DNA of 63,653 nucleotides, counting the filler, from Welwitschia mirabilis (taxonomy: Eukaryota), in NCBI GenBank assembly GCA_051453625.1. It is 4 parts of one record of this genome, joined end to end, with 100 filler letters (N's around TTAATTAATTAA, not from the genome) between each part and the next. Parts side by side here need not be neighbours in the genome. Positions count along the whole stretch, not along the records: positions 23,985 to 49,895 come from JBOZIK010000001.1; 3 more parts are not named here. One strand, given 5' to 3'. Shown in pieces: positions 12,880 to 59,750 of this stretch (position 1 is its first letter; the number at the start of each line of letters is the position of its first letter). Under the pieces are notes generated by a model. That model worked only from the letters and a program-made list of their open reading frames with translations. It was not told the origin of the DNA and made no database searches. The position numbers were made by a program, and so were the translations under genes.

Positions 12880-14200
12880 AAATAAAAATAGAGTATTTGC
12901 TTAGACTTATGTGAATATCATAAGAATGGATACTATAGTCTAGAAAAATAAGATTTGCTTGGATATTACTGTAAAAACTATTAGATAGCTAGAGAGAAGG
13001 TGTAACTCCCATTTGCAGGAATTGATTAGATAGGAAATTTTAAGATTACTAAAGATATATTTCATCTTTATGGTAGTTCCAAAGAAAGGAAATAAGTGGA
13101 GGGTATGGATAGATTTTAGATTATTGAATGTTGGTACCTACAAATATCATGTTTTCTTACTATTTGTATATCACGTTTTAGAAAGAATTTCTAATCATAA
13201 GCATTATAAAATTTTGGATGAGTATAGTGGATATAATCAGATAACTATAGCACTTGAATACCACACAAAGATGACATTCACTTACAAATGTGGCACATGT
13301 GCTTTTAAATTCCTAACCTTTGGACTATGTAATGTACCAACCACTTTTCAGAGACTAGTTAATACTATTTTGCAAAATAAGATTGGAAGATCAATAAAGG
13401 TTTTATGAATGATTGTCAACTTTTGGAAATAATTTTGCTAAAGCTTGAAAGAGATGAGAATCTATAACTGGATGTGAGGGGAAAAAATTTAAAATTAAGC
13501 TAGTTTAAAAGTCATCTCATGGTAATAAAAGAAATTGTTTTATGTTATAGTATATCAGTTCAAGGTATTAAAACTAATAAATAAAAGTTTAGTGTCATTA
13601 AGAAATTCCATCATCCTCTAAACTAAGAGAATTAAGATTAGTTTTGGGCCATATGGTTTATTATAGAAGACTCATTACATATTTTAGTAAAATTGCTAAA
13701 CCATTAAGTAACCTCTTACAAAAAGATAAATCTTATGAATGGACTTAGAAATGTTAAGAATCTTTTCAAACATTGAAAAATAAAATAATAAAAGCACCTA
13801 CTTTGCAAAAACCATATTGGAACACACCTTTTCACATCATAACATATGCTTTAAAGTTTGCAATAAGGTAGAAACATGATAAACATAAACCTTATGCTAT
13901 TTCTTGCATCATAAAAATGTTAATTCTACACAATAAAATTATATGGTCATAGAAAAAGAAAAATGCTTGAAATTATTACATCTTTGAAAAAATTCAGGCA
14001 TTACATCCTAAGATCCAAAGTTAAAGTTCATATAGATCATAGTGTTGTATAAATCCTAATGAATAAAATGAAAGCTAACTCTTAAATTATCAAGTAGATT
14101 CTCTTGATTTAAAATTTGATCTAAAGGTAATAGATTAAAAAGGAAATATATTAAAAAGGAATAGAGAATTTACTAGCTAATTACTTGTCTACACTAGAAT
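12880..14200 (+). pseudogene. Gypsy reverse transcriptase / RNase H relic
   Basis: ORF 13070-13408 has VVPKKGNKWRVWIDFRLLN, LDEYSGYNQI and FGLCNVPTTFQR. Downstream: LGHMVYYRRLITYFSKIAKPLSNLLQKD, EKFRHYILRSKVKVHIDH. Confidence 0.92.
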
Positions 14201-23884: not shown

Positions 23885-23984
23885 NNNNNNNNNNNNNNNN
23901 NNNNNNNNNNNNNNNNNNNNNNNNNNNNTTAATTAATTAANNNNNNNNNNNNNNNNNNNNNNNNNNNNNNNNNNNNNNNNNNNN
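23885..23984. other. Artificial scaffold spacer (44 N + TTAATTAATTAA + 44 N)
   Basis: The 12-mer at 23929-23940 has stops in all six frames, is embedded in Ns, and recurs identically three times. Confidence 0.95.
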
Positions 23985-38035: not shown

Positions 38036-40329
38036 TTAGGTAGTTTGTAGTTAGTAGGTGTTTTATTTTAGGTAATGAAAAACCTAAAGATTTCAGAGAG
38101 TGTATAACTTTTTTAGGTTTCTTTGAATGGCTATAATGATTTTATAGACATTTCAAAAATTTTGAGGTTACATGCTTCACATGCATGTGATGTGCTATGC
38201 TTAGGAAAAAAAAAAAAGAAAGAGGGAAAACTCCATGTTGTTCAGTATGATAAGAGATATCTCATGGGGACTATTATTAAAGCAACATTTTAATATCCAT
38301 TTTTCAAGAAAATAATAGCAGAAGTATTAAAATACTAAACAAAACTAGAAACACATAATAAAAATACAAAGAGATTTTGTGGTTTAAATTATTTTCAACA
38401 TTCATCCCCAAGAAAGTAGTGTAGAGCTCTTATTGAAATGACTTCATAGTCTATAAGGTAATNNNNNNNNNNNNNNNNNNNNNNNNNNNNNNNNNNNNNN
38501 NNNNNNNNNNNNNNNNNNNNNNNNNNNNNNNNNNNNNNNNNNNNNNNNNNNNNNNNNNNNNNTTAGTAGGTGTTTTATTTTAGATAATGGAAAACCTATA
38601 AATTCCAAAGAGTGTATAACTTTTTTGGATTTCTTTGAATGGCTATAATGATTTTATAGACATTTCAAAAATTTTGAGATTACATGCTTCAAATGCATGT
38701 GATGTGCTATGCTGAGAGGGGGAAAAAACCAAAAAACATAAAGAAAGAAAGGGGGGAAACTCCATGTTGTTCACTATGATAAGAAATAGCTCATGGGGAC
38801 CGTTATTAAAGCCACATTTNNNNNNNNNNAGAAACACATAAGAACACCACAAAGAGATTTTGTAGTTTAAATTCTTTTCAACATTCATCCCCAAGAAAGT
38901 AGTGTAGAGCTCTTATTAAAATGACTACATAGACTATAAGGTAATAATGAGCATTGAGATTTAATTATAGTGATTTAATTTCTTACTTTTACATGGGAAT
39001 CACTATTTTGTCCTACTCAGAAATCACTGTCTTTTCCATAGGAATCACATCTCAAATGACATACTCAATGCACAACACAACTTTAAGGAAGCCATATAAA
39101 ATGCCAAGAGAGAATCTTCTAGAAATCCTTCAATCTATAGGAGCCTCTAAAATCCCTCAGACCTATAAAAATATTTAGAACTACTAGATATAGCTCCTTA
39201 TTTTAACTTTACTTTGATATTTCATATGCTAATTTTATAACATAATCACCTTTTATAACATTAATTATGATCAATATCAAAACATAACAAACAAAAGGCC
39301 CAAAAATATAAATATTTCTTCATCATAAATGAGATCAATCTTTAGTGCTTTAGTGCTAATTTTCAAAAATTGATTATATATACCCTCATACAACATTTCT
39401 CTATCATACCATCCCTATATTATATTTTTTCCCCCTTTCTTTTTGGACTTGGATGAAATATCTTAATATGTAAGGGAACTAACTTCTATTGTATACTATT
39501 TTTTCTTATTATGAGTTTGACAGCTTGACTGTGGCTCACTNNNNNNNNNNNNNNNNNNNNNNNNNNNNNNNNNNNNNNNNNNNNNNNNNNNNNNNNNNNN
39601 NNNNNNNNNNNNNNNNNNNNNNNNNNNNNNNNNNNNNNNNAATATGTAAGGAAACTAACTTCTATTGTATACTATTTTTTCTCATTATGAGTTTGACAGC
39701 TTAACTGTGGCTCACTAATTAATCTTACATTATCTTCATTATACTTCTATGAGAATATTATACTTTTATTTTCTTCTATTAAACACATATTTTTCTTTAT
39801 TAAGATAGAAAATATTTTCCTATTTTAACATTTTGTCTTATTATGGTTGAAAAATGCACCTTTTATAGCCCTAAGTCATTTGTTCATTTTAATTATGCAT
39901 TAGAAGGATATGGAGGTATAAATTTATTCAATACTATGAGCTCATTATTAGTTATTACTATTAAGTAAAACCAAATCTTTTTTGTCCCTTATACCTTTTG
40001 TTCCATCTTATACTTTAAAAGTGACCTTATGATAAGGTGACTTCAAGTAATACATATTTATAACTAATTTAAATTATTAGTTACTAATTCAAACATATTA
40101 TCCTTGGGTATTTTGAGTTTATAAGCTACAAGTATTACATGTTGAATTAGTCAACTACATGACAAATGGGAGTTCCAGTTAATGGTGTGTTTTAGTTTTA
40201 GATGAGTCCCTTGTTCATAATGCTGTGGGTATATGTAAAGAAAATAAGCACCCATTATAATACATTTTCTCTCTCAAGTGGGGTATTGTATAGGTAGGTT
40301 ACTGTTTGATTCCCACATAGTGGGGTATT

Positions 40330-41600
40330 TGTTACAGTGTGTATTTTTGCAACTTCACATCTTACTCTAAATCATATTAATCAAAATATATAGGTTGTAA
40401 CATACACACTCTAGTATAAATGGGAGTAAACCAAATGTCGTAACCCATTAAAGACTTATAAGAGAATAATGAGAATTGATTTTTGAAGAGAATATGATAA
40501 TTAAAACTTAAGAATAGTGCAAGAAATAAAGATGCGAAGTAATGCAAGCATAACTAAATCTAAATGCAATGCAAAATGACTAAAACTAATTTCTTCAACC
40601 TTAATAAAGGCTTCCCTTAAGACCTATATCGTCAATGAAACTATCACCAGATCAATGACAACATAAATTATAAGAAANNNNNNNNNNNNNNNNNNNNNNN
40701 NNNNNNNNNNNNNNNNNNNNNNNNNNNNNNNNNNNNNNNNNNNNNNNNNNNNNNNNNNNNNNNNNNNNNNNNNNNNNAACTATCACCAGAATAATGAAAA
40801 CATAAATTATAAGAAAGATATAATAGAACTAGGATGTACAATTGTAATAAAAATGTGTACTAGAGTAGAACCAACATCTAGGTTACAAACCAACCAAGGC
40901 TTAATGGAGGATGCATAGCCCTTCATCAAGGTAACATCTTTCTGCAACTTACGAGATGGATCTCTAGTCCTTCAATCTCCTATCACAAGAATTTCTAGTG
41001 CAAATGAAGATGGAAAGGAAAGTCAAGGAAAAGGCCTTATTTATAGGGCTAAGAAGTAAAACTGTCACATAAAAGGCACTACAAAACATGCTCAATTACA
41101 AAAAAGAAATAGATGAAATAGACAAAGTTCAACTAATAGTTATAACTATTATCCTACCTATCATGGAGATGACCAAGGGGATGATGGTATTATTGTCCTT
41201 CATGTCATGGAGACTACATGGGGGATGATACCTTTATAAAAAAGGATTTCATTAGTTCTAGCTCTAGTCTAGTCAGCATCCTATCTTGGCATGTGTAGGG
41301 CTATCGTCCTATCTGTCATGGGGATAATAGCGAGGACAATAGTCCTCCTTTGCTTTTCAAGTACCAAGAAAATATCTCTAGCATTAGTGATTTTCCTTAA
41401 AAGCACTGAACATCAAAAAGTACCTGAAATGCTTTCAAATATGCCAAGAATTATGTATTTTAGTGATCATCCATCAAATTCCCATAATCCTTAGAATTGC
41501 ATATAAACCTGTATTAAAGTCTTGCAAAATAGCTCATAACACCCCCATAAAATACATGTAATTTGGTAGAATATCATAACCCCTTACTTATCCTTTATCA
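40330..41600 (-). mobile_element. Solo LTR (Athila-like), same family as 4059-5924
   Basis: TG...TATCA termini and colinear similarity to 4059-5924. Flanking 5-mers GTATT and GTCCT match only partly. Confidence 0.6.
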
Positions 41601-44600
41601 GTCCTTAATAAAAAAGCAAGTAAATAACTACAATTGCAAGCTAAATTGTCTTTAAAAAAAGTCCATATAAAAATTAAAAAATAGGCTCATAAATAATCTT
41701 AAACACATTACATAGTAAAATAACATGTAACACATAATGTGTATGGAGTGAAAATTTCAAAAATTATATCTCATGAAATATTTAAAATAACTTGAAAAAT
41801 AATGAAAATGAGCCATGAAAATGAGTCCTACCCTTTCCTCGATAAAAATAATACATCTTGTATTGGCTAGTGAAGTAAAGAAAGTAGATAAAAATGAGAA
41901 GGCAAACAATGGGTGTCTTTGAATTTGGAAAATTAATGAATGAAGTGTAAAGCTGAGTATAGAAATGTCAAATTTAAAAAATCAAGATGTATGAAATATT
42001 CTGACAAGCATGGAAAGAGTATGCAATGAAAATGTGATAAGTAGAATGAAGTAGATTTATAAATGCCCAAAAAATGTACCATCACAAAAATAATTAGAAG
42101 CAATGTTTAGAACTATAAAAGACTAAAAATAACATCATAAAGAAACACATCTATGCAAGAAATGAATTCTTTATTAAAGATTAAGCAAGGAAACCATTAA
42201 ATGTTAAGGTCCTAAAATGATAAGAAAATACAGAAATGACTTTCGAAAAACTAACTAAATAAAGAAATAAAAACAAAAATAATGAACATAAGACAACACA
42301 AAGAAGATAGCATAACTACCCTCAATTTTAATCTAGCATACTCCCATGGAAGAAATAATAACATTACTTAAATTTTAAAATGCATGACTTAATATATAAA
42401 AAATTCCATTCAATAAGGCATTGGTTATAATGANNNNNNNNNNNNNNNNNNNNNNNNNNNNNNNNNNNNNNNNNNNNNNNNNNNNNNNNNNNNNNNNNNN
42501 NNNNNNNNNNNNNNNNNNNNNNNNNNNNNNNNNNNNNNNNNNNNNNNNNNNNNNNNNNNNNNNNNNNNNNNNNNNNNNNNNNNNNNNNNNNNNNNNNNNN
42601 NNNNNNNNNNNNNNNNNNNNNNNNNNNNNNNNNNNNNNNNNNNNNNNNNNNNNNNNNNNNNNNNNNNNNNNNNNNNNNNNNNNNNNNNNNNNNNNNNNNN
42701 NNNNNNNNNNNNNNNNNNNNNNNNNNNNNNNNNNNNNNNNNNNNNNNNNNNNNNNNNNNNNNNNNNNNNNNNNNNNNNNNNNNNNNNNNNNNNNNNNNNN
42801 NNNNNNNNNNNNNNNNNNNNNNNNNNNNNNNNNNNNNNNNNNNNNNNNNNNNNNNNNNNNNNNNNNNNNNNNNNNNNNNNNNNNNNNNNNNNNNNNNNNN
42901 NNNNNNNNNNNNNNNNNNNNNNNNNNNNNNNNNNNNNNNNNNNNNNNNNNNNNNNNNNNNNNNNNNNNNNNNNNNNNNNNNNNNNNNNNNNNNNNNNNNN
43001 NNNNNNNNNNNNNNNNNNNNNNNNNNNNNNNNNNNNNNNNNNNNNNNNNNNNNNNNNNNNNNNNNNNNNNNNNNNNNNNNNNNNNNNNNNNNNNNNNNNN
43101 NNNNNNNNNNNNNNNNNNNNNNNNNNNNNNNNNNNNNNNNNNNNNNNNNNNNNNNNNNNNNNNNNNNNNAGAAGTTCAAAGTTCAGTTCAATTCGAGAGC
43201 AGAGTTTTCAAAGATTTTACTACTAGCCTTGTGAAAGTGGATGCCCCTGTTTCTGAAGAGAAAACATTTTAGCTCCATCTCCAGGTTTTAAATTTTTATA
43301 TTTCAGATGTTGTAAATGTTATATTTCTGAGTTTAATTCCTTAGTTATTTGAACTCAATAGATGTGCTGTAGCATTTCTTTCTATGAAAGCAAGAAACTC
43401 TTATGTGTGCATAATATGTTCAGCTGCAAATAATTGGAAACCGGTTACTGCAAGTGAGAATTCATTTCAGTTTTAGATAAGTGAATGTTCCATTATATAC
43501 CAGAAATTTCCAGAATTTTATTTTATAGAGTAGATGGTTCAAAAGAAATTTCTTAATGAAAAACATATGGATTTATCTTCCTTTTATTTTCTGATCTCTA
43601 AATACTTGTCCTATTCTAAAATTGTTACCATTAGATCTTGTGATAAAGGCCTCCTTTTATTAGCATATTAANNNNNNNNNNNTTGCTGTCAACAAAAGGG
43701 AATCTCTACAGTAGTCTTAACACTACTTGTATAAATAAGAAACTTTGAGGTTGAAATAGAAATTACATATTACACTGGGAACTTCAAAATCATCCTTCGA
43801 AAAGATGTAGTTAAAAAGTATTTTTTGATGATAAGAAGCATATCAAACCATATGTAAAACATATTTTTCTAATATCACAACCCTTTTCCATAGCTCTAAT
43901 GGCTCCTGTCACAACCATTTTCCCACTAATAGCTTACAACATCCCTTTTCTTAGTCATTATGACTTTAAAAAGCCTCTTTACCGACACTATTTTCTTAAT
44001 TCCATGGTCAAACCCTCACATAGGTGCTAGTATTCTGACAACATCACAAGTCAGGATTTTCATATCAATTTCTCTTACTATTAGGGTTTACTTTTAGCTG
44101 CTTCTTCTTTTGTTTATTCTTTTTGCATGTTTGATAACATATATTTGAAAAAAGGAGAAAAGCTTTTTGTAAATATTACTAGGATAGCAACAAGCTTTTG
44201 GTAACAATTTAATTCTTAGCACATGTCTATATTAGAACTTTTCAACTAGTAGTTTAAATAAAACGCTCTTTATTTTATATGGAGTTTGGTATTAAGTAAG
44301 AATATTTTTACTTTATTTCGTTTAAATATTATTACTATGTCCTACTAAGGAGGAAGTATTATTTGGTAGATTTTTCCTTTAGAGTCTTAGGCTATGCCTC
44401 ATTATGGCTCTGCGTCGTCATCTTGTAATGGCTAAAAATTATAGACTGTTGCCAAAAACTAAAGGCAAACAAGAGTATTACTACTTTAGTTAACACTCAT
44501 CAGGTTGTAATTAGCATTAGGGGTCCCTCTTTAAGATGACACAAAATACTTTATTTTGTACTAAACTCAAAATATTAAGAATGGATACACGAATGATGCA

Positions 44601-44884
44601 ACATCTAGAAATGTCTGAAGAACTACTAGAGGGATTGTGAGGAAAAGATATTTGAGCTAACACACAGAGAGATTTCTAGAAAAGTGAAAAGAGAAAAAGG
44701 GAGAAAACTAATGCATGTCATTATAAAAGAATCCCACTGTGTCTTTCAATTCAAAGAGAGTAAGTAGATGACATTGTTAGAGGGCACAAAGCTAAGCATG
44801 TTGCTAAAACACTCCAATTCTTTTAGGAAGCAAATTTCTCTTAGTCTAGAACCCTATAAAAGATAAAGAGAGTGAGTCTAATGA

Positions 44885-45696
44885 ATGCCCTTACTTGTAT
44901 AAAAAGAATGCAGAAGCAACTTGACCCACTTGTGCAAGTTCTTTATAGTCATGTACAACATGTTATCATCTTCTTCTTGGGTTTCCTCTCCTAGTGTAAA
45001 TGCATCATCAAGCGCTTTAAAAAGTTCTTATGGGTTATCAATGTTTAGTAGGTATTTGATTATCCAAACTTTCTTAAGAAGTAACTTTTAAAGATGTAAT
45101 ATAGCATTCTCATATGAATGCTTTATCATATTTCTTATCTCTTCATGAGTGGCATTTGTGTCTCTAGTAAAACCCCATGCTNNNNNNNNNNNNNNNNNNN
45201 NNNNNNNNNNNNNNNNNNNNNNNNNNNNNNNNNNNNNNNNNNNNNNNNNNNNNNNNNNNNNNNNNNNNNNNNNNNNNNNNNAGTAACTTTTGAAGATGTA
45301 ATATAGCATTCTCATATGAATGCTTTATCATATTTCTTATCTCTTCATGAGTGGCACTTGTGTCTCTAGTAAAACCCCATACTTTTGATAAAAGTGATAT
45401 TAATATTAAATTAAGTTGGTTTATCCCAGAGAATTTCTATTGACTGGGGAAGAGGTTTTAAAGGTGGTAAAGAGTATGCTTCGTCAAGTTTGAATGCTGC
45501 ATCTTCTAGTTTTCTAGTACTAAAGCTTGCATTATCATGTGCTTANNNNNNNNNNGCCAAATCTGCTATCTTTCTTTTACTATACTCAACATCATCATAA
45601 TGTTTATTTATAATGTCTTGGAGTTATAACCTCAAGTTTTGTGGGATTGGTTTTAATTTTCTTTAGAAGCCCATCATGCTTTTGCACATCTTGGTC
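44885..45696 (-). pseudogene. Intronless fragment of a CDB1/CDB1L (At4g37920/At1g36320-family) chloroplast protein, 3' partner of the chimera
   Basis: With frameshifts: [11 protein letters not shown] / [136 protein letters not shown]. These match recalled family motifs NQLDSTLVLMITKAW, KYLLNIxDPEE..AL.DAFxPG and LYTTPKELHKWIK. Confidence 0.75.
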
Positions 45697-46113
45697 AATG
45701 GCATGTTTACTCTCATCCATGTTAGCTTTGTTCCCAACTAATATTTTATTCACATTGTCTAAGGCATGTTGTTCAATATTCCTAATCTAACTTATAATAT
45801 TGTTAAATGATGATTCATATATCATATTGTAGATAAGAATAATTCCCATAGCACCATAATAATAAGCTGTTATAATAATGCAAAATCACTCTTAACCAAT
45901 AGTATTCCATATTTGTAATTTTATGCGCTTGTCATCAAGTTCAATTATCCTTAACTTGAAATCAATCCCAATAGTGGTTATGAAACTTGTAGTAAAAGAA
46001 TCATTAGAGAAATAAAAAAGAATACAACTTTTCTCAATATAACTTTCACCAATTAGTAATAGCTTGATGACACAATCGTAATATGCTTGAGCTTATGCTA
46101 GTGCAGAAGCCAT
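45697..46113 (-). pseudogene. RABE1: Processed (intronless) RabE1/Rab8-type small GTPase pseudogene, 5' ~139 codons
   Basis: One continuous frame: [134 protein letters not shown]. It is colinear with plant RabE1, has four in-frame stops and has no introns. Confidence 0.95.
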
Positions 46114-48723
46114 GCTAAAGCAAGATAGCTAGAACCTGAAAGCCTAAGAAGAAGATGTTTGAAGCCATAAGATTATTATATCTTTTGATTTTGATAAAAT
46201 ATGAATGAGATAAAAGCCTCTACTTTTTGAAAATGATTTGTTTAGTTTCTTTTGAAAATTTTTTAAAAACCTAAGATGATTTATTTGTTCATTTTCTTAT
46301 GTAAAATGATCTGTTCATCTAAAATGTTAATAATTATTTTATATTCTCTTATATTATTGTAATTTATAGCATAGAAAATAAAAAGGCTTAGTGGTAATAA
46401 ATAATATAGCTTGATATAGTATTAAATAGAGAGGTTTAACCTAAATGTAAAGCTAGGAAAAAGGGGGAAAGGTATGTATTAATAAATAGAGTAAGCCTAT
46501 TGTATTGAGCTAAGTTACAACTTTGATTTCTTAATAATAAAGAGCCTTTCTCACAAATATTACTTATAAATTGATGCTTAAGTTATTTCACATGAGAATA
46601 AACCATACAAATACTAACAACTATTTGCTTAAATTAGAGGGCAAAAAAAAGCCCTTATTGAACTTGGTAAGCAAATTAAATAATATTGCTTGATTGATGT
46701 GCCATTTCTAATGTGCTATATCTTTAAGGCCTTTGTAAGTTATATACATATTTACAATTAGTGTAACTTTCAAAATTAAATTCCTTCACTTCTATGTATC
46801 ATTGATTTTATCCACACTCTTTTTGCTTATAGGGCTTAAACATAATTTTTACTTCTATTAACATTCTTCAATGGTAAAACTTGGATTAAAAATCTCTAGT
46901 AATTATTTATTATTGAGATAATTGCATCCTCAAAAACATGCAGGATGAAGCATTTGCATATGATTTATGTCATGGAATTGAAATGCATTATCAAGTAAAG
47001 ACACTTAGCAATGATGATTTCATGCACCAAAACCTGCATAGCTTGAGACATTTAGCAATGATTGGTGGAATGGAATGTGTGTTGTGAGGTTTTAGGTGTT
47101 ATTGTGCTTGAAATTTATCATAGAAAGGAAGTAAATAAATTGGAAAGAAGTAAAATTAGAACATTTCAACGGTTTATGAAGCCTCTACAATCAAGCAAAA
47201 GTCATATTACTTTAAGTGAAATTAGCTGTACATTTGAATGAAGAATTTTGCTGCACTCTTTAGCTGTGATTTTTTGACTTCTATATTGATTTTTATGTTT
47301 CAACCTTGAAAAGTTGTGATTTAGAATTTAGGATTTAGGGTTTATCGTTTAATATTAATTAAACTAGTGGTTATTAATACATTGCTTATTTAATAGAGTT
47401 TTTTTTAAAACTGATTAGTATCATATGATAAAATAGGATTTAGACTTTTAGTACTACTTATACATGATACTAATCCTAAATTAAGATTATTCATGATTAA
47501 TTTAGAATTTTAAACATCTGTCTTTCCATTATATTTTTTGGATTCTCATATAACCATAATGGATTTTTCTCTTTTCCCTTAATGTCTTTATTGAGATGCA
47601 AAGAAAGATGCATTTGTCATGTTCATCTATAATAATTTACCTTGTGTTGAGACTATTATAGGAACACATCTAATGACATCATCATATCCATCGTCCTCAT
47701 CTAATAAATCCATTTATGCAAGGGACAAGAGCTAGATGTTTATGAATAGGTATTACATATCCAATTACATTTAAAGTTATNNNNNNNNNNNNNNNNNNNN
47801 NNNNNNNNNNNNNNNNNNNNNNNNNNNNNNNNNNNNNNNNNNNNNNNNNNNNNNNNNNNNNNNNNNNNNNNNNNNNNNNNTAGAAAGGAAGTAAATAAAT
47901 TGGGAAGAAGTAAAATTAGAACATTTCAAAGGTTTATGAAGCCTCTACAATTAATAAAAAGTCATATTGCTTTAAGTGAAATTAGCTGTACATTTAAATG
48001 AAAAATTTTGCTACACTCTTCAGCTGTGATTTTTTGACTTCTATATTGATTCTTATGTTTCAACCTTGAAAAGTTGTGATTTAGAATTTAGGTTTTAGGG
48101 TTTATTATTTAATATTAATTAAACTAGTGGTTATTAATACATTGCTTATTTAATAGAGTTTTTTTTTAAACTGATTAGTATCATATGATAAAATAAGGTT
48201 TAGACTTTTAGTCTTACTTATACATCATAATAATCTGAAAGTAAGATTATTCATGATTAATTCAGCATTTGAAACATCTATCTTTCCATTATGTTTTTTT
48301 GATTTTCATATAACCATACTGGCTTTTTCTCTTTCCCCTTAATGTCTTTATTGAGATGCAAAGAAAGATGCATTTGTCATGTTCATCTACAATAATTTAC
48401 CTTGTGTTGAGACTATTATAGAAACACATCTAATGACATCATCATATCCATCATCCTCATCTAATAAATTCATTTATGCAAGGGACAAGAGCTGCATGTT
48501 TATGAATAAGTATTACATATCCAATTACATATAAAGTTATTTCTATAACTTTAAAAATTTTACATANNNNNNNNNNNNNNNNNNNNNNNNNNNNNNNNNN
48601 NNNNNNNNNNNNNNNNNNNNNNNNNNNNNNNNNNNNNNNNNNNNNNNNNNNNNNNNNNNNNNNNNNTTTAAAGTTATTTCTATAACTTTAAAAATATTAC
48701 ATACTTATTTGTCTAATATTACT

Positions 48724-49860
48724 ATGTATAGGAGATGTAAGAAGTCGAAGAATGGTGTAAATAGATTCATAGGTTTTGTGATTAACAATTTCTTCAGTTC
48801 TCAAGGCATACTTTATCCATGCGTAAAATGCTGCAACACTTGTTATCAATAACCAAATATTATTTTTGAGCATATATTATGGAAAGACATGAATCTTACA
48901 TACGTAAGGTGGATTATGCATGAGGAAGTATCAAAAGAATACTATGACAAATGTAAAGGCCTAAATATAATATAGGATGACCCTATTTCCATGATAAAAG
49001 AAGCCTTTATGTTCTTTAATGATGGAGAGAAATCATATGAAGAAAAAAACATCATGGATTTCTTAAATTCTAATAACTTTAGTGGTGATGTAAAAAATGT
49101 AGAATATGATAAGTTAATCAAAGAAGATAAGGACCCATTTTACCATGGGTGCGTAAAATATATAAAGCTTTCTATGAGTATCAAATTGCTTAACATTAAA
49201 GCATGGGTAGATGATCAAATTCAACATTTTCAATGTTGCTTGATCTCTTACATAACTCTTTTCCAAAAGGTAACATTAGATTATATTTTACTGATTGATG
49301 TCAAACTAATGTTTTTTGTATAGCAAATTTTGTATATCTTGTGCAGNNNNNNNNNNNNNNNNNNNNNNNNNNNNNNNNNNNNNNNNNNNNNNNNNNNNNN
49401 NNNNNNNNNNNNNNNNNNNNNNNNNNNNNNNNNNNNNNNNNNNNNNATCAAAAGAATACTATGACAAATGTAAAGGCCTAAATATAATATAGGATGACCC
49501 TGTTTCCATGATAAAAGAAGCCTTTATGTTCTTTAATGATGAAGAGAAATCATATGAAGAAAAAAACATCATGGATTTCTTAAATTCTGATAACTTTAGT
49601 GGTGATGTAAAAAATGTAGAATATGATAGGTTAATCAAAGAAGATAAGGAGCCATTTTACCCTGGTTATGTAAAGTATTCAAAGCTTTCTATGAGTATTA
49701 AATTGCTTACCATTAAAGCAATGGGTAGATGATCAAATTCAACATTTTCAATGTTGCTTAATCTCTTACATGACCCTTTTCCAGAAGGTAATGTTAGATT
49801 ATGTTTTACTAATTAATATCAAACTAATGTTTTCTGTATAGCAAATTTTGTGTATCTTGT
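48724..49860 (+). mobile_element. Second CACTA transposase, N-terminal part (cut by the scaffold end; partly duplicated)
   Basis: GVNRFIGFV...ILYPCVKCCN...IFEHILWKDMNLTYVRWIMHEE (transposase-associated domain), then YDRLIKEDKEPFYPGYVKYSKLSMSIKLLTIKA. Confidence 0.85.
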
Positions 49861-49895
49861 GCATAAGATGTTAATCACTTGAAAGTCTAAAGATA

Positions 49896-49995
49896 NNNNN
49901 NNNNNNNNNNNNNNNNNNNNNNNNNNNNNNNNNNNNNNNTTAATTAATTAANNNNNNNNNNNNNNNNNNNNNNNNNNNNNNNNNNNNNNNNNNNN
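49896..49995. other. Artificial scaffold spacer
   Basis: 44 N + TTAATTAATTAA (49940-49951) + 44 N. Confidence 0.95.
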
Positions 49996-52299
49996 AAGAT
50001 CCTTGTGAAGGTTTTGGGCCTTACTATGCATTTAGGTCAAAATTGTAACCTACATTTATAAGTTAGGAGCTTCACATTTTGGCTTCCAATTCTACAATGT
50101 GGGTTAGCTTATGGTTCATATCTATTATGTATTCAAGGCGTGGCAGGGTGTGGGCTTCAACATCTTGGGTAGCTTGGATATTTGGTGTCTAACTCCTAGG
50201 CTGGTAGGGACCACCCATTTGTTTTCACCATAGTAAGTGCAGTACAATTTGCCATGTATTAACTTAATCACCAAGAAAGAAAAAAGAAAAACTGTTGAGA
50301 TTACATATTATTTCCTTCTATTTTGGCTTTTTTTCAACCATATTAGTATTTGATCCACACTGTTATAATCTTTTTTTGTTATATCTCAAGAAATCTCACA
50401 CTCATCATTTTGACTCTATTGGTCTCCATGACCATACTGCTATCTTATCTTGGGAAGCTGAGATTGGACATCGAGCAAAATGTAATCTCTGGAAATCCAG
50501 ATTCATCATCTTCATCACTATAAATAGTCTTTTCTTGTAATATAATCTGTAATGGCCTCCTGGTAATGCTGTTTTGCATTAGTCGTTATTTTTGTGTTAG
50601 TTTCCTAGATATTTTTGCAGGCTTGTGTCTCTCTGCTCAACCAATTTTATGTGATTCTGAGCTTTTGCTTGGTTGTAACTCTGCTTTATTTCAAGGTATA
50701 TCAATCATAAATAAATGGAAAAATTTTCATGGCAATAAAGGTACGAACCCAAACTCATGGCTCCTATAAAGTATAACAACTTAAACACAAATTCTGTTAA
50801 AAAGATAACAACTGTGTCTTTCAATATACAGAGGAAAATGAAAAGAAAATTTAAATACGTATGCCACTCTGGCATAAATATTTGTTTTGAATTAGAAGGA
50901 AAAAAACATGCATGGAAATGTGCTGTAAGATTTCACTGGAAGAGAAGCACTTGTTTCCTAGCATGGCCTTGCTTCCCGAGGGCCTTTTCCAATGCCACAT
51001 TGAAATTAAGAAAAGAGGTCGTTTCCATTCTGTAAAAGCAGAAAAGAATGCACTGTTATTCGATAAAATGACAGCATTTACATTTTCAAGGGCCTCACAT
51101 GATCAGAAAAAAGCAAATTTTGAAGTAGCCAGATCAAATAGTAAAACTAGTAGAAGCATAATTGTTCCGTCATGGGAGGGAATTTAACACAATATTTGTC
51201 ACCAACATCCCACATGATACTTATACTCAAGTAAGATATTTATATCTAAATAAAGAAAACCCAGGAGAGATATCTTCACAACGAAAAATTACCTCGGTGT
51301 TCTGGCAATTATTTTCATCAGTGTTCATTTTATAAAGTTAAGATAAATGAACTAGATCCCTGCTAAGGAAGATAGCTCTGTACATGTTCAATTCAGCAAC
51401 AAATTCCTTGATCAATTAACCTCAATGAGGACATTCAAGTTAATTAAAAATAATGTATATAGAAAAGCCTCAAGATACATCTTGAATAATTGGTCATATT
51501 GGAGGTCACAAGAGTCAAAAGGGACTCAAGAGAGCCCAACACTATCAAATGGACAAACATATTGACGAAAAACGAAACTAAATTGATCAAGATATCTTAG
51601 ACTCAATCGATTAGGATATTCTCAGAGACCATTTTTAATAAAAAAGAATAAAAAAGAATTAAGGAAGATAATACTTTTGATGACATTTCCTAGTACTGAA
51701 ACCTTTGTTCAGAAATTGAAGGTTACTTTTTCAAACTCAAATGTCAAAACACATACAAATGGAACAAGAGAGCAGAAGATGTAACAATGGTTTGGCCTTT
51801 TTTTAGTTTACATCTATGGGAAAAGCATAACACAAAGCTAATCTATTGATCTTGACAACATAGAAGATGCAGCATCCTGCATGAAAATCTTATCAAACCA
51901 AATTTCAGGAGCCTACTCCAGAGACAAAAGNNNNNNNNNNATGAATAAGCAAAAATAATTTTACATAGCTTATTCCTTCTCTTTTACGACTCAAAAGCTC
52001 AGCCTAGGGGAAACAGTATACTAATTATGAGTTCTACCCTAAATATTAGTCTACAACCTCCAAACTCAAGGTAAAGGGTCTTGAACATGAGATCTAGTCA
52101 AGTGACACACGTGTTGCACATCTTTAAAACTTCACAGCAAACAACTTAATTTTGTTGACATCCAGTTTCCATAGCATGCTTTAGAAGTCACTTCTTTTTT
52201 TAATTTTTTTAATTTAAACATGAAAAACAAAATCTGCCATCTAGAAAACAAGAAAACTCGAGAGCCATTCACCAAGGTGCCAAATTTGTTTGACATGCA

Positions 52300-59650: not shown

Positions 59651-59750
59651 NNNNNNNNNNNNNNNNNNNNNNNNNNNNNNNNNNNNNNNNNNNNTTAATT
59701 AATTAANNNNNNNNNNNNNNNNNNNNNNNNNNNNNNNNNNNNNNNNNNNN
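59651..59750. other. Artificial scaffold spacer
   Basis: 44 N + TTAATTAATTAA (59695-59706) + 44 N. Confidence 0.95.

What the first reader, a model, noticed from the sequence alone, without database searches (positions are those of the whole stretch)
44885..46113. Chimeric intronless retrocopy: RabE1 GTPase fused in frame to a CDB1-family chloroplast protein
Seen: on the minus strand the RabE1 frame runs from ATG (46113) to ...[12 protein letters not shown] and continues without a frame change into [12 protein letters not shown]. That is followed by ~800 nt resembling the At4g37920/At1g36320 (CDB1/CDB1L) family. Known: angiosperm RabE1 genes have several coding introns in this stretch, and none is present here. 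Inference: two unrelated spliced mRNAs were joined during reverse transcription (template switch), or a chimeric spliced transcript was retroposed. The junction falls close to where I recall a RabE1 exon boundary (MDESKR/AVP), which would favour a splice-type join. The locus is now dead, and the ORF track misses the Rab part entirely.
Basis: partly seen in the sequence, partly recalled or inferred. Interest (0 to 1): 0.78.

Follow-up and report, generated by a model that had tools for sequence, protein, structure and literature searches.

The report
Dead Rab–CDB1 chimeric processed pseudogene
This is a long-dead, intron-free DNA copy of a hybrid messenger RNA that joined the front of a Rab GTPase gene to the back of a chloroplast-biogenesis gene, and the joint looks like the work of the splicing machinery, but such fossils are a known kind.

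Summary
On the minus strand, 46113-45700 is an intronless, stop-riddled RABE1/Rab8-type reading frame (Pfam Ras E 2.3e-33). It runs in frame at 45700|45699 into residues 76 to about 300 of an At4g37920 (CDB1/RP8) family protein (tblastn 7e-40).

Contigs from two DNA studies cross the joint. A second copy, 10-12% diverged, has the same joint. RNA reads of both parental mRNAs part from the window exactly at the joint, with no shared bases.

The CDB1 half starts exactly at a widely conserved exon start: 48 of 148 family representatives lose homology within a few residues of it, 39 of them at residue 75 or 76. The Rab half ends 3 nt past the conserved ESKR|A exon junction, just before a GT.

I read this as a chimeric spliced RNA (cryptic Rab donor, genuine CDB1 acceptor) that was reverse-transcribed, duplicated and decayed by C-to-T change. 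Reverse-transcriptase template switching is less likely.

- No poly(A) tail or target-site duplication was found, and the 3' end is truncated.
- Both flanks are repeats.
- There is no sign of expression.
- Two assembly gaps and a 102-nt gap-flanking duplicate lie inside the locus.

It is a new member of a known kind, of modest interest.

The parts
46276..46500 (.). Upstream flank. It is repeated elsewhere in the genome without the chimera.
   Evidence: 3 contigs (X1) and 4 contigs (X4) match from 46276 upward and carry unlike sequence below it. Summed contig depth is 24-81 here, against 4-34 in the bins over the chimera.
46114..46275 (-). Stretch derived from the Rab mRNA 5' UTR. Its outer 50 nt are uncertain.
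   Evidence: parental Rab RNA reads cover 46076-46223 (depth 75 falling to 10-22). They are essentially absent from 46224 upward.
45700..46113 (-). RABE1/Rab8-type coding sequence, codons 1-138. It has no introns, 4 in-frame stops and ruined G motifs.
   Evidence: Stops sit at codons 7, 74, 76 and 109, where the family has R, Q, R and W (A1); each is reachable by C>T or G>A changes. Introns seen in relatives at codon 25 (L008) and codon 49 (L020) are absent here.
45699..45700 (-). The chimeric joint. It is blunt and in frame (Ala138 of Rab | Ile76 of the CDB1-like protein).
   Evidence: loose ends. Rab mRNA reads match down to 45700 and then go on as V-S-T-A-R-G-Q-A-L-A (71 and 46 reads). CDB1-like mRNA reads match up to 45699 and go on upstream as L-L-K-L-H-R-V-L-N-E (51 reads). 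Contigs X4 rec11, X4 rec13 and X1 rec7 cross the joint.
44881..45699 (-). At4g37920 (CDB1/RP8) family part, P0001 residues 76 to about 300. It has no introns, is frameshifted, contains stops, and is 3'-truncated.
   Evidence: Contiguous over family intron positions near 126-132, 213|214 and 275|276. Parental RNA reads stop matching at 44895 (61 and 55 reads). Flank-repeat contigs begin at 44878 and 44887.
45605..45614 (-). Site of a copy-specific deletion. The second copy keeps 34 nt here; parental RNA reads show a joint at the same place.
   Evidence: table 5c (34 letters in X1 and X4 contigs, reading F-S-M-D-F-I-E-H-I-M-L, close to P0001 108-118). Table 5 shows an RNA joint at 45609-45615 (20 and 14 reads; letters between not given). 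One search shows a frame change here.
45427..45433 (-). Frameshifting 2-nt deletion.
   Evidence: table 4: 42 of 42 (X14) and 28 of 29 (X17) RNA reads carry two extra letters after 45427. One search shows a frame change at 45432/45433.
45080..45383 (.). 100-N gap (45182-45281) flanked by 102-nt near-identical copies. Probably an assembly overlap rather than a real duplication.
   Evidence: D11 (97% identical). The same pattern appears at other N gaps of the window (D2, D3, D5-D8, D10, D13). Both copies encode P0001 201-233.
45546..45555 (.). 10-N assembly gap inside the CDB1 part.
   Evidence: X4 rec11 fills it with 21 letters (table 4).
44300..44880 (.). Downstream flank: repeated sequence, not parental mRNA.
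   Evidence: RNA depth is 0 to about 2 below 44892. 2 contigs (X1, at 44878) and 3 contigs (X4, at 44887) match below and carry unlike sequence above. Contig depth reaches 55 in 44818-44891. No poly(A) run is seen.

Best explanation
The locus is a dead chimeric processed pseudogene. A hybrid mRNA carried the 5' UTR and codons 1-138 of a RABE1/Rab8-type GTPase, joined in frame to the second coding exon onward of the conserved core of an At4g37920 (CDB1/RP8) family gene. That mRNA was reverse-transcribed and inserted into the genome.

The hybrid RNA was most likely made by the spliceosome. The acceptor was the genuine acceptor of the CDB1-family exon that starts at residue 76. The donor was a cryptic GT lying 3 nt inside the Rab exon that follows the conserved ESKR| junction. 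That donor suggests either that the Rab moiety was already an intronless retrocopy (or read-through partner) upstream of that exon, or that trans-splicing was involved.

The insert was later copied at least once, lost its 3' end (or was only partly copied), and decayed by C-to-T/G-to-A change, stops and small deletions.

Shown: the anatomy, the exact joint, the multiple copies, the absence of introns, and the decay. Inferred: the splicing origin and the order of events. The confidence of 0.65 is for the whole statement including the splicing origin; that the locus is a dead chimeric retrocopy I hold at about 0.9.
For: (1) Both halves are identified, colinear with the proteins, and free of introns.

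(2) The families have introns inside the copied parts.
- Rab: codon 25, phase 1, with a 3' splice site visible in L008; codon 49, with a GT...AG intron in L020.
- Rab: ESKR|A. In A1, 7 exon-skipped isoforms read ESKR|SAKTN and 7 read-through forms read ESKR|V..., out of 24 comparison sequences. I picked 20 of these from the 120 listed hits for odd length, plus four full-length references.
- CDB1 family: 75|76, about 126-132, 213|214 and 275|276. PMC8866770 (passage, section 18) gives 6 exons and 5 introns for Arabidopsis CDB1.

(3) The joint is exact and blunt. The loose ends show both parental mRNAs leaving the window at 45700|45699 with no shared base.

(4) Acceptor side.
- Of 148 family representatives from the exhaustive search, 48 have their homology to P0001 end at residues 71-81. 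Of those, 36 end at 76 and 3 at 75, typically as ...KLKE-V followed by unrelated residues (S, C, G, F...). This is what read-through of a GTAAGT/GTATGT-type donor after E75 gives.
- P0244 is a one-exon ORF ending KLKE|VSCME*.
- So the CDB1 part starts at the first base of a conserved exon. My estimate of chance for a random break is about 5 junctions in about 1300 nt, or roughly 0.4%.

(5) Donor side. The Rab mRNA continues after the break with GT (Val codon GTT); chance is 1/16.

(6) The joint is not an assembly artefact.
- X4 rec11 (1152 nt, 45327-46456, 38 differences) crosses the joint in another species label.
- X1 rec7 (17 differences in 171 nt) and X4 rec13 (51 in 428 nt) are a second, 10-12% diverged copy with the same joint.

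(7) Decay. Against the window, RNA reads show A>G 55 and T>C 63 versus C>T 14 and G>A 13 of 182 differing places (X14). X17 gives 67 and 74 versus 15 and 14 of 212. There are 4 stops in the Rab part, and the G1 and G3 motifs are destroyed.

(8) Processed, non-chimeric Rab pseudogenes exist in the same genome. Three X1 contigs run on past 45710 as decayed Rab coding sequence across the ESKR|A junction (19 of 30 letters match the Rab mRNA and 9 of the 11 differences are transitions, by my hand comparison).
Against: - The Rab break is not at the canonical exon end. It lies 3 nt into the next exon, and the implied donor (GCC|GTTTCC) is a poor match to the plant donor consensus.
- No poly(A) tail and no target-site duplication were found.
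- The CDB1 part lacks its last 45 or so codons and its 3' UTR. That is unusual for LINE-type retroposition and typical of partial copies made inside LTR-retrotransposon particles (PMC5470649, passage in section 5).
- Exon positions come from other plants, mostly angiosperms, not from the true parents.
- One parent-like genomic contig of the same organism (X1 rec6, 44902-45093, carrying the RNA-type variants) is itself uninterrupted across the 275|276 intron position. The expressed parent may therefore lack some introns, or the contig may be another retrocopy.
- The RNA runs come from a related species label (organism B). The window matches organism A.
Confidence: 0.65

Rival explanations
1. 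Reverse-transcriptase template switching. During one reverse-transcription event (LINE target-primed, or inside an LTR-retrotransposon particle), the enzyme copied the CDB1-like mRNA up to codon 76. It then jumped to a mature Rab mRNA and copied that to its 5' end. On this reading the exon-start coincidence is chance.
For: - The joint is blunt.
- The 5' part reaches the Rab 5' UTR (depth table).
- The Rab break is off the exon junction by 3 nt.
- The insert is partial at its 3' end and flanked on both sides by repeats. PMC5470649 (section 5 passages) describes this pattern for LTR-mediated chimeric retrocopies.
- A reverse-transcriptase remnant lies in the window at 13034-13408.
- Chimeric pseudogenes made by LINE template jumps are documented (PMC2104539; I saw the listing and the start of the abstract only).
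Against: - The CDB1 break falls on the first base of a conserved exon.
- The Rab break precedes GT. My estimate of the joint chance is about 3 in 10,000.
- There is no microhomology at the joint, whereas the LTR model cited expects chance similarity at switch points (PMC5470649 passage).
- Six-frame Pfam scans found no LTR, gag, integrase or RT domain within 41000-50000.
Confidence: 0.2
2. DNA-level juxtaposition. Two separate processed pseudogenes, or fragments picked up by a DNA transposon, were brought together by deletion, end joining or capture.
For: - A CACTA/TNP2-type transposase-associated domain lies 3 kb away at about 48730-48930 on the + strand.
- Both flanks are repeats.
- Non-chimeric Rab pseudogenes exist in the genome.
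Against: - The fusion is in frame, base-exact at an exon start, and has no filler.
- No inverted or direct terminal repeats bracket the insert within 30000-63653.
- No other copy of the flanks is found in the window.
Confidence: 0.08
3. Assembly mis-join of two unrelated contigs in a gap-rich draft.
For: - The window has 44 N runs.
- Gap-flanking duplicates occur, one of them inside this locus.
Against: - The joint lies in gap-free sequence (45556-46113).
- It is crossed by contigs of two runs from two studies and two species labels, and by a diverged second copy.
Confidence: 0.02
4. A live or recently live chimeric gene.
For: - The fusion is in frame.
- It is kept in two species labels and in two copies.
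Against: - There are 4 stops in 138 Rab codons, and the P-loop is ruined.
- Two frameshifting deletions and further stops lie in the CDB1 part.
- No RNA read is 99% or more alike, and only 24 of 1175 and 8 of 761 reads are 95-99% alike.
- None of 8 long or odd family hits carries a Ras domain.
Confidence: 0.03

Closest known systems
PIPSL (hominoid PIP5K1A-PSMD4 chimeric retrogene)
   Same: Exons of two unrelated genes are joined at the RNA level. The chimeric mRNA is then reverse-transcribed into an intronless in-frame fusion (PMC3747384, passages in sections 9-11).
   Different: - PIPSL comes from read-through between neighbouring genes, uses canonical splice sites, carries L1 hallmarks and is expressed.
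- Here the donor is a cryptic GT 3 nt inside an exon, and whether the parents are neighbours is unknown.
- Here no poly(A) or TSD is seen, the copy is 3'-truncated, and it is dead.
Template-switch chimeric retrocopies (LINE-mediated bipartite or tripartite pseudogenes; LTR-retrotransposon-mediated chimeras such as maize Bs1)
   Same: - Intronless fragments of different cellular RNAs are fused head to tail.
- The copies are partial.
- They are flanked by repeats (PMC5470649 passages; PMC2104539 abstract start).
   Different: Their joints bear no relation to exon borders. Here one side is exon-exact and the other precedes GT. No LTRs or retroelement genes were found next to the insert.
Plant chimeric retrogenes that recruit flanking exons (rice, poplar, Arabidopsis)
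   Same: A retrocopy forms part of a hybrid coding sequence in a plant genome (PMC5470649 passages; PMC6881317 abstract start).
   Different: Those chimeras are intron-containing genes built at the insertion site. This locus is a seamless, fully processed copy of an already chimeric RNA. It could be a second-round retrocopy of such a gene.
RABE1 (Rab8-type) GTPases and CDB1/RP8 (At4g37920) proteins
   Same: These are the sequence sources of the two halves.
   Different: Each is present only as a fragment. The Rab part lacks its last 78 or so residues and the prenylation cysteines. The CDB1 part lacks the transit peptide, the first core exon and the C-terminus. Both are inactivated.

Membership tests
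Processed pseudogene / retrocopy | No introns at positions where genes of the family have them | tested here: met
   Rab: codon 25 (L008), codon 49 (L020) and 137|138 (A1) are all uninterrupted in 45700-46113. CDB1 family: about 126-132, 213|214 and 275|276 are uninterrupted. The positions come from other plants.
Processed pseudogene / retrocopy | Colinear with the mature mRNA, including UTR | tested here: met
   Spliced parental RNA reads cover 44892-46223, including about 110 nt upstream of the ATG.
Processed pseudogene / retrocopy | 3' poly(A) tract | tested here: not met
   No A run follows the CDB1 part. Homology stops about 45 codons before the stop codon.
Processed pseudogene / retrocopy | Target-site duplication | tested here: inconclusive
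   The ends are defined only to within about 10-50 nt. I saw no direct repeat by eye in the sequence, and ran no search for short repeats. Heavy decay could hide one.
Processed pseudogene / retrocopy | An intron-bearing parent elsewhere in the same genome | not testable with these tools
   No genome is held. The one parent-like contig, X1 rec6, covers only 192 nt and shows no intron at 275|276.
RABE1/Rab8 GTPase | Ras-family domain with RABE1 as closest named subfamily | tested here: met
   Pfam Ras E 2.3e-33. Top named hits are RABE1c/a/d and Rab-8A.
RABE1/Rab8 GTPase | Intact G1/G3/G4 motifs and C-terminal prenylation cysteines | tested here: not met
   GDSGVGKS reads [14 protein letters not shown] reads NTIG*E, and NKAD reads NKAN. 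The sequence ends at residue 138 of about 216.
At4g37920 / CDB1 / RP8 family (PF26740) | Significant sequence similarity over the conserved core | tested here: met
   tblastn 7e-40 to P0001. P0001 matches named At4g37920 proteins at E about 1e-82.
At4g37920 / CDB1 / RP8 family (PF26740) | Direct Pfam PF26740 match | tested here: inconclusive
   The local Pfam copy returns nothing for the window frames or for P0001. PF26740 appears only as a precomputed label.
At4g37920 / CDB1 / RP8 family (PF26740) | N-terminal transit peptide and complete open frame | tested here: not met
   The copy starts at P0001 residue 76, has two frameshifts and in-frame stops, and ends near residue 300.
PIPSL-type retroposed spliced chimera | Joint at splice sites of both parents | tested here: inconclusive
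   Acceptor side: an exact conserved exon start. Donor side: 3 nt past the conserved exon end, at a GT.
PIPSL-type retroposed spliced chimera | Parents adjacent and co-oriented (read-through), or a source locus present | not testable with these tools
   No genome is held.
Template-switch chimeric retrocopy | Joint unrelated to exon structure; LTR or LINE sequence abutting | tested here: not met
   The joint is exon-exact on one side. No retroelement domain lies in 41000-50000. The flanks are unidentified repeats.

The most novel reading that the evidence does not exclude
The pseudogene copies are fossils of a lineage-specific fusion gene, and possibly of a still-existing source locus. In that gene a Rab retrocopy, or the Rab gene itself, was spliced onto the CDB1-like gene. 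The result would be an in-frame Rab(1-138)-CDB1(76-end) protein that had a functional phase before its retrocopies died. That would make it a plant counterpart of PIPSL.
Probability: 0.1. Interest if true: 0.6.

Novelty: new member of a known kind. Interest (0 to 1): 0.33.

Why it matters
Chimeric retrocopies record rare RNA-level events. In most cases one cannot tell whether the joint was made by the spliceosome or by a jumping reverse transcriptase. Here the joint can be read to the base, with an exact conserved exon start on one side and a GT on the other, so it is a fairly clean plant example of a retroposed spliced chimera.

It also shows that such a copy can persist and be duplicated in a very AT-rich, methylation-decayed genome.

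The practical value is for annotation:
- The locus should be labelled as one chimeric pseudogene.
- The internal duplicate is an assembly artefact.
- The same gap-flanking duplication affects much of this scaffold.

No function is expected.

Tried and rejected
- Whole-genome search for parents and other copies: no genome is held.
- Earlier findings by sequence and by place: nothing on record.
- Pfam on the three frames of the 3' half: no family. Pfam on P0001: no family.
- Self-comparison of the insert and both flanks against the window: only the gap-flanking duplicates, with no second copy and no empty site.
- Repeat search in 30000-63653: no LTR-like or TIR-like pair around the insert.
- Six-frame Pfam scan of 41000-50000: only Ras/Roc and one Transpos_assoc hit.
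- Metagenome scan with Arabidopsis RABE1 (P0226) to obtain genomic Rab loci. The 80 loci kept (570 of 598 stretches confirmed) were almost all intronless cDNA-like contigs. Only L008, L020 and L031 showed an intron.
- I first inferred exon borders at P0001 54|55 and 230|231 from single odd gene models (P0085, P0109). The larger sets did not bear these out.
- Search for a Rab-CDB1 fusion protein: none of 8 long or odd family hits has a Ras domain. Only 150 of 291 hits were listed, so this is weak evidence.
- Expression: no RNA holder was listed for the stretch. In the two RNA runs that were laid, no read was 99% or more alike.
- A possible retained intron at the 3' break (the window reads GTAAG right after 44895). 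I rejected this as the simpler reading, because a 6-nt deletion followed by K-G-I also fits the parental N-T-R-K-G-I-F. It stays ambiguous.
- Literature: no listed paper links RABE1 or At4g37920 with retrocopies (10 of 488 listed, 6 of 6 listed).
- Supplementary files of PMC8866770 and PMC8695849 (alignments and gene models) were not seen. They might give the exon borders of At4g37920 directly.

Full report
**What is there**

The window is a very AT-rich draft: 17-38% G+C per 2-kb bin, with 44 N runs.

On the minus strand, an ATG at 46113 opens a 138-codon frame with four stops and no frameshift. It matches Pfam Ras positions 1-125 of 162 at E 2.3e-33. Its closest named relatives are RABE1c/a/d and Rab-8A at 68-74% identity; 1598 of 1708 candidates had E<=1e-10 and 120 were listed.

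The stops lie where the family has R7, Q74, R76 and W109. The G motifs are ruined: GESYIEKS for GDSGVGKS, NTIG*E for DTAGQE, and NKAN for NKAD.

The same frame continues into [12 protein letters not shown].... From there on the sequence matches P0001, a 345-aa transcript-derived protein, at 73% identity. It is colinear over residues 76-106, 119-182, 183-233 and 201-307 (tblastn).

P0001 belongs to the At4g37920/At1g36320 family. All 120 listed hits carry PF26740 and many are named 'uncharacterized protein At4g37920'. The nearest named species are gymnosperms at 43-48% identity. At4g37920 is CDB1 (PMC8866770, abstract and passages) and RP8 (PMC8695849, abstract and passages).

**Artefacts inside the locus**

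A 10-N gap (45546-45555) and a 100-N gap (45182-45281) interrupt the CDB1 part. The 102 nt on either side of the 100-N gap are 97% identical, and both encode P0001 201-233. At least eight other N gaps in 30000-63653 are flanked in the same way (D2, D3, D5-D8, D10, D13). I therefore take this duplicate to be an assembly overlap.

**Reads**

No genome is held for this window. I laid two DNA contig sets (X1, X4) and two RNA read sets (X14, X17) on 44300-46500 at 80% likeness.

Which organism the window belongs to, and the other species label:
- X1 contigs are identical to the window: 0 differences in 441 nt and in 203 nt. The window is therefore organism A.
- In organism B, a 1152-nt contig (rec11) covers 45327-46456 with 38 differences. 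It crosses the joint and fills the 10-N gap with 21 letters.

A second copy:
- A second copy, 10-12% diverged, also crosses the joint. It appears as X1 rec7 (17 differences in 171 nt) and X4 rec13 (51 differences in 428 nt).
- That copy keeps 34 nt that the window copy has lost at 45605-45614. They read F-S-M-D-F-I-E-H-I-M-L, close to P0001 108-118.

So the joint is real, exists in two species labels, and was duplicated after it formed.

**The parents in RNA**

Most laid RNA reads are under 90% alike: 901 of 1175 in X14 and 574 of 761 in X17. They are parental mRNAs, not transcripts of this locus.

- Rab-part depth is roughly 60-300.
- CDB1-part depth is roughly 20-80, lower beside the two N gaps.
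- Depth is about zero below 44892 and above 46224.

The loose ends fix the joint to the base:
- Reads of one Rab paralogue match down to 45700 and then continue V-S-T-A-R-G-Q-A-L-A (71 and 46 reads).
- A second Rab paralogue is clipped at 45710 and continues S-K-R-A-V-P-T-A-R-G-Q (138 and 92 reads).
- CDB1-like reads match up to 45699 and continue upstream L-L-K-L-H-R-V-L-N-E, which is P0001 66-75 (51 reads).

These translations are my hand reading of the printed consensus strings. There is no shared base at the joint.

**Intron positions**

Rab:
- Among 24 comparison sequences (20 chosen from the 120 listed hits for odd length, plus four full-length references), 7 skip exactly AVPT...FFET, reading ESKR|SAKTN.
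- Another 7 read ESKR|V followed by unrelated residues. That is the signature of reading into a GT-initiated intron.
- L008 shows a 3' splice site at codon 25, and L020 shows a GT...AG intron at codon 49.

CDB1 family:
- An exhaustive search returned 291 hits, of which 150 were listed.
- Of the 148 I compared with P0001, 48 lose homology at residues 71-81: 36 at residue 76 and 3 at residue 75. They nearly always read ...KLKE-V followed by S, C, G or F and then junk.
- P0244 is a single-exon ORF ending KLKE|VSCME*.
- Further borders lie near 126-132, 213|214 and 275|276.
- Arabidopsis CDB1 has six exons (PMC8866770, section 18 passage).

The window copy is uninterrupted at all of these positions.

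**Reading the joint**

The CDB1 half begins on the first base of a conserved exon. The Rab half ends one codon (GCC, Ala138) past the conserved exon end, and the parental Rab mRNA continues with GT.

A random break would hit an exon start about 0.4% of the time and precede GT about 6% of the time; these are my estimates. This favours a spliceosomal join from a cryptic Rab donor to the genuine CDB1 acceptor, followed by reverse transcription of the chimeric RNA.

A cryptic donor is easier to understand if the Rab moiety was already intronless. Non-chimeric processed Rab pseudogenes do exist in this genome: 3 X1 contigs run on past 45710 as decayed Rab coding sequence.

The closest precedent is PIPSL (PMC3747384 passages).

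**What does not fit neatly**

- There is no poly(A) tail and no recognisable target-site duplication.
- The CDB1 part stops near residue 300 of 345. Parental reads stop matching at 44895. A 6-nt deletion followed by K-G-I may extend the homology to about 44881.
- Both flanks are repeats that occur elsewhere without the insert. Contigs break at 44878/44887 and at 46276, and contig depth is higher outside the insert.

Partial, repeat-flanked chimeras are what LTR-particle template switching produces (PMC5470649 passages). That rival keeps about 0.2. However, I found no LTR pair and no retroelement domain within 41000-50000.

One parent-like contig (X1 rec6) is uninterrupted at 275|276. The gene structure of the true parent is therefore unverified.

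**State of the locus**

It is dead.
- Besides the stops, it has frameshifting deletions at 45605-45614 and at 45427 (42 of 42 and 28 of 29 RNA reads carry the two missing letters).
- The differences from the parents are dominated by loss of G/C. In X14, A>G 55 and T>C 63 against C>T 14 and G>A 13. In X17, 67 and 74 against 15 and 14.
- No read is 99% or more alike.
- No Rab-CDB1 fusion protein appeared among 8 long or odd family hits.

**Verdict**

This is a confirmed chimeric processed pseudogene, most likely a retroposed spliced chimera. It is a new member of a known kind and of modest interest.

Noticed in passing
window 30000-63653 (e.g. 47121-47780 vs 47881-48540; 48930-49345 vs 49447-49863; 38051-38462 vs 38563-38945): Most 100-N gaps are flanked by near-identical (87-97%) copies of the same 70-660 nt. 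This looks like a systematic scaffolding artefact, with overlapping or allelic contig ends placed in tandem. It would inflate tandem-duplicate counts on this scaffold.
   Followed up: partly
window 48730-48930 (+), repeated after the gap near 49447: A transposase-associated domain (PF13963, E 5e-10), typical of the N-terminus of CACTA/TNP2-type transposases, lies 3 kb upstream of the chimera on the other strand. No link to the chimera was shown.
   Followed up: partly
window 13034-13408 (+): A 124-aa open frame matches reverse transcriptase RVT_1 (E 7.6e-09), a retroelement remnant.
   Followed up: no
window 23885-23984, 49896-49995, 59651-59750: Three identical layouts of 44 N, 12 bases, then 44 N. 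Two of them score as a perfect 101-nt inverted repeat only because of the Ns (I1). These are probably masked or templated gap fillers, not biology.
   Followed up: no
elsewhere in the genome of organism A (X1 contigs laid at window 45710 upward): Three contigs continue past the chimeric joint as decayed Rab coding sequence, crossing the ESKR|A exon junction. This means non-chimeric processed Rab pseudogenes also exist.
   Followed up: partly
protein P0001 (residues 296-312) and RNA reads at window 44895: The expressed CDB1-like protein of this lineage carries a 17-residue insert (TRKGIFMEAKLYPDPTM) that is absent from the other aligned family members (182 in the alignment). It also lacks the roughly 90-residue N-terminal region that includes the transit peptide. 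All 61 and 55 RNA reads at that point carry the start of the insert. The expressed gene may itself be an unusual or retro-derived copy.
   Followed up: partly
protein P0328 (391 aa): This family member has an unrelated 138-residue N-terminus joined at the same exon start (residue 75/76). It shows the same acceptor used with another upstream exon. It has no Pfam domain.
   Followed up: partly
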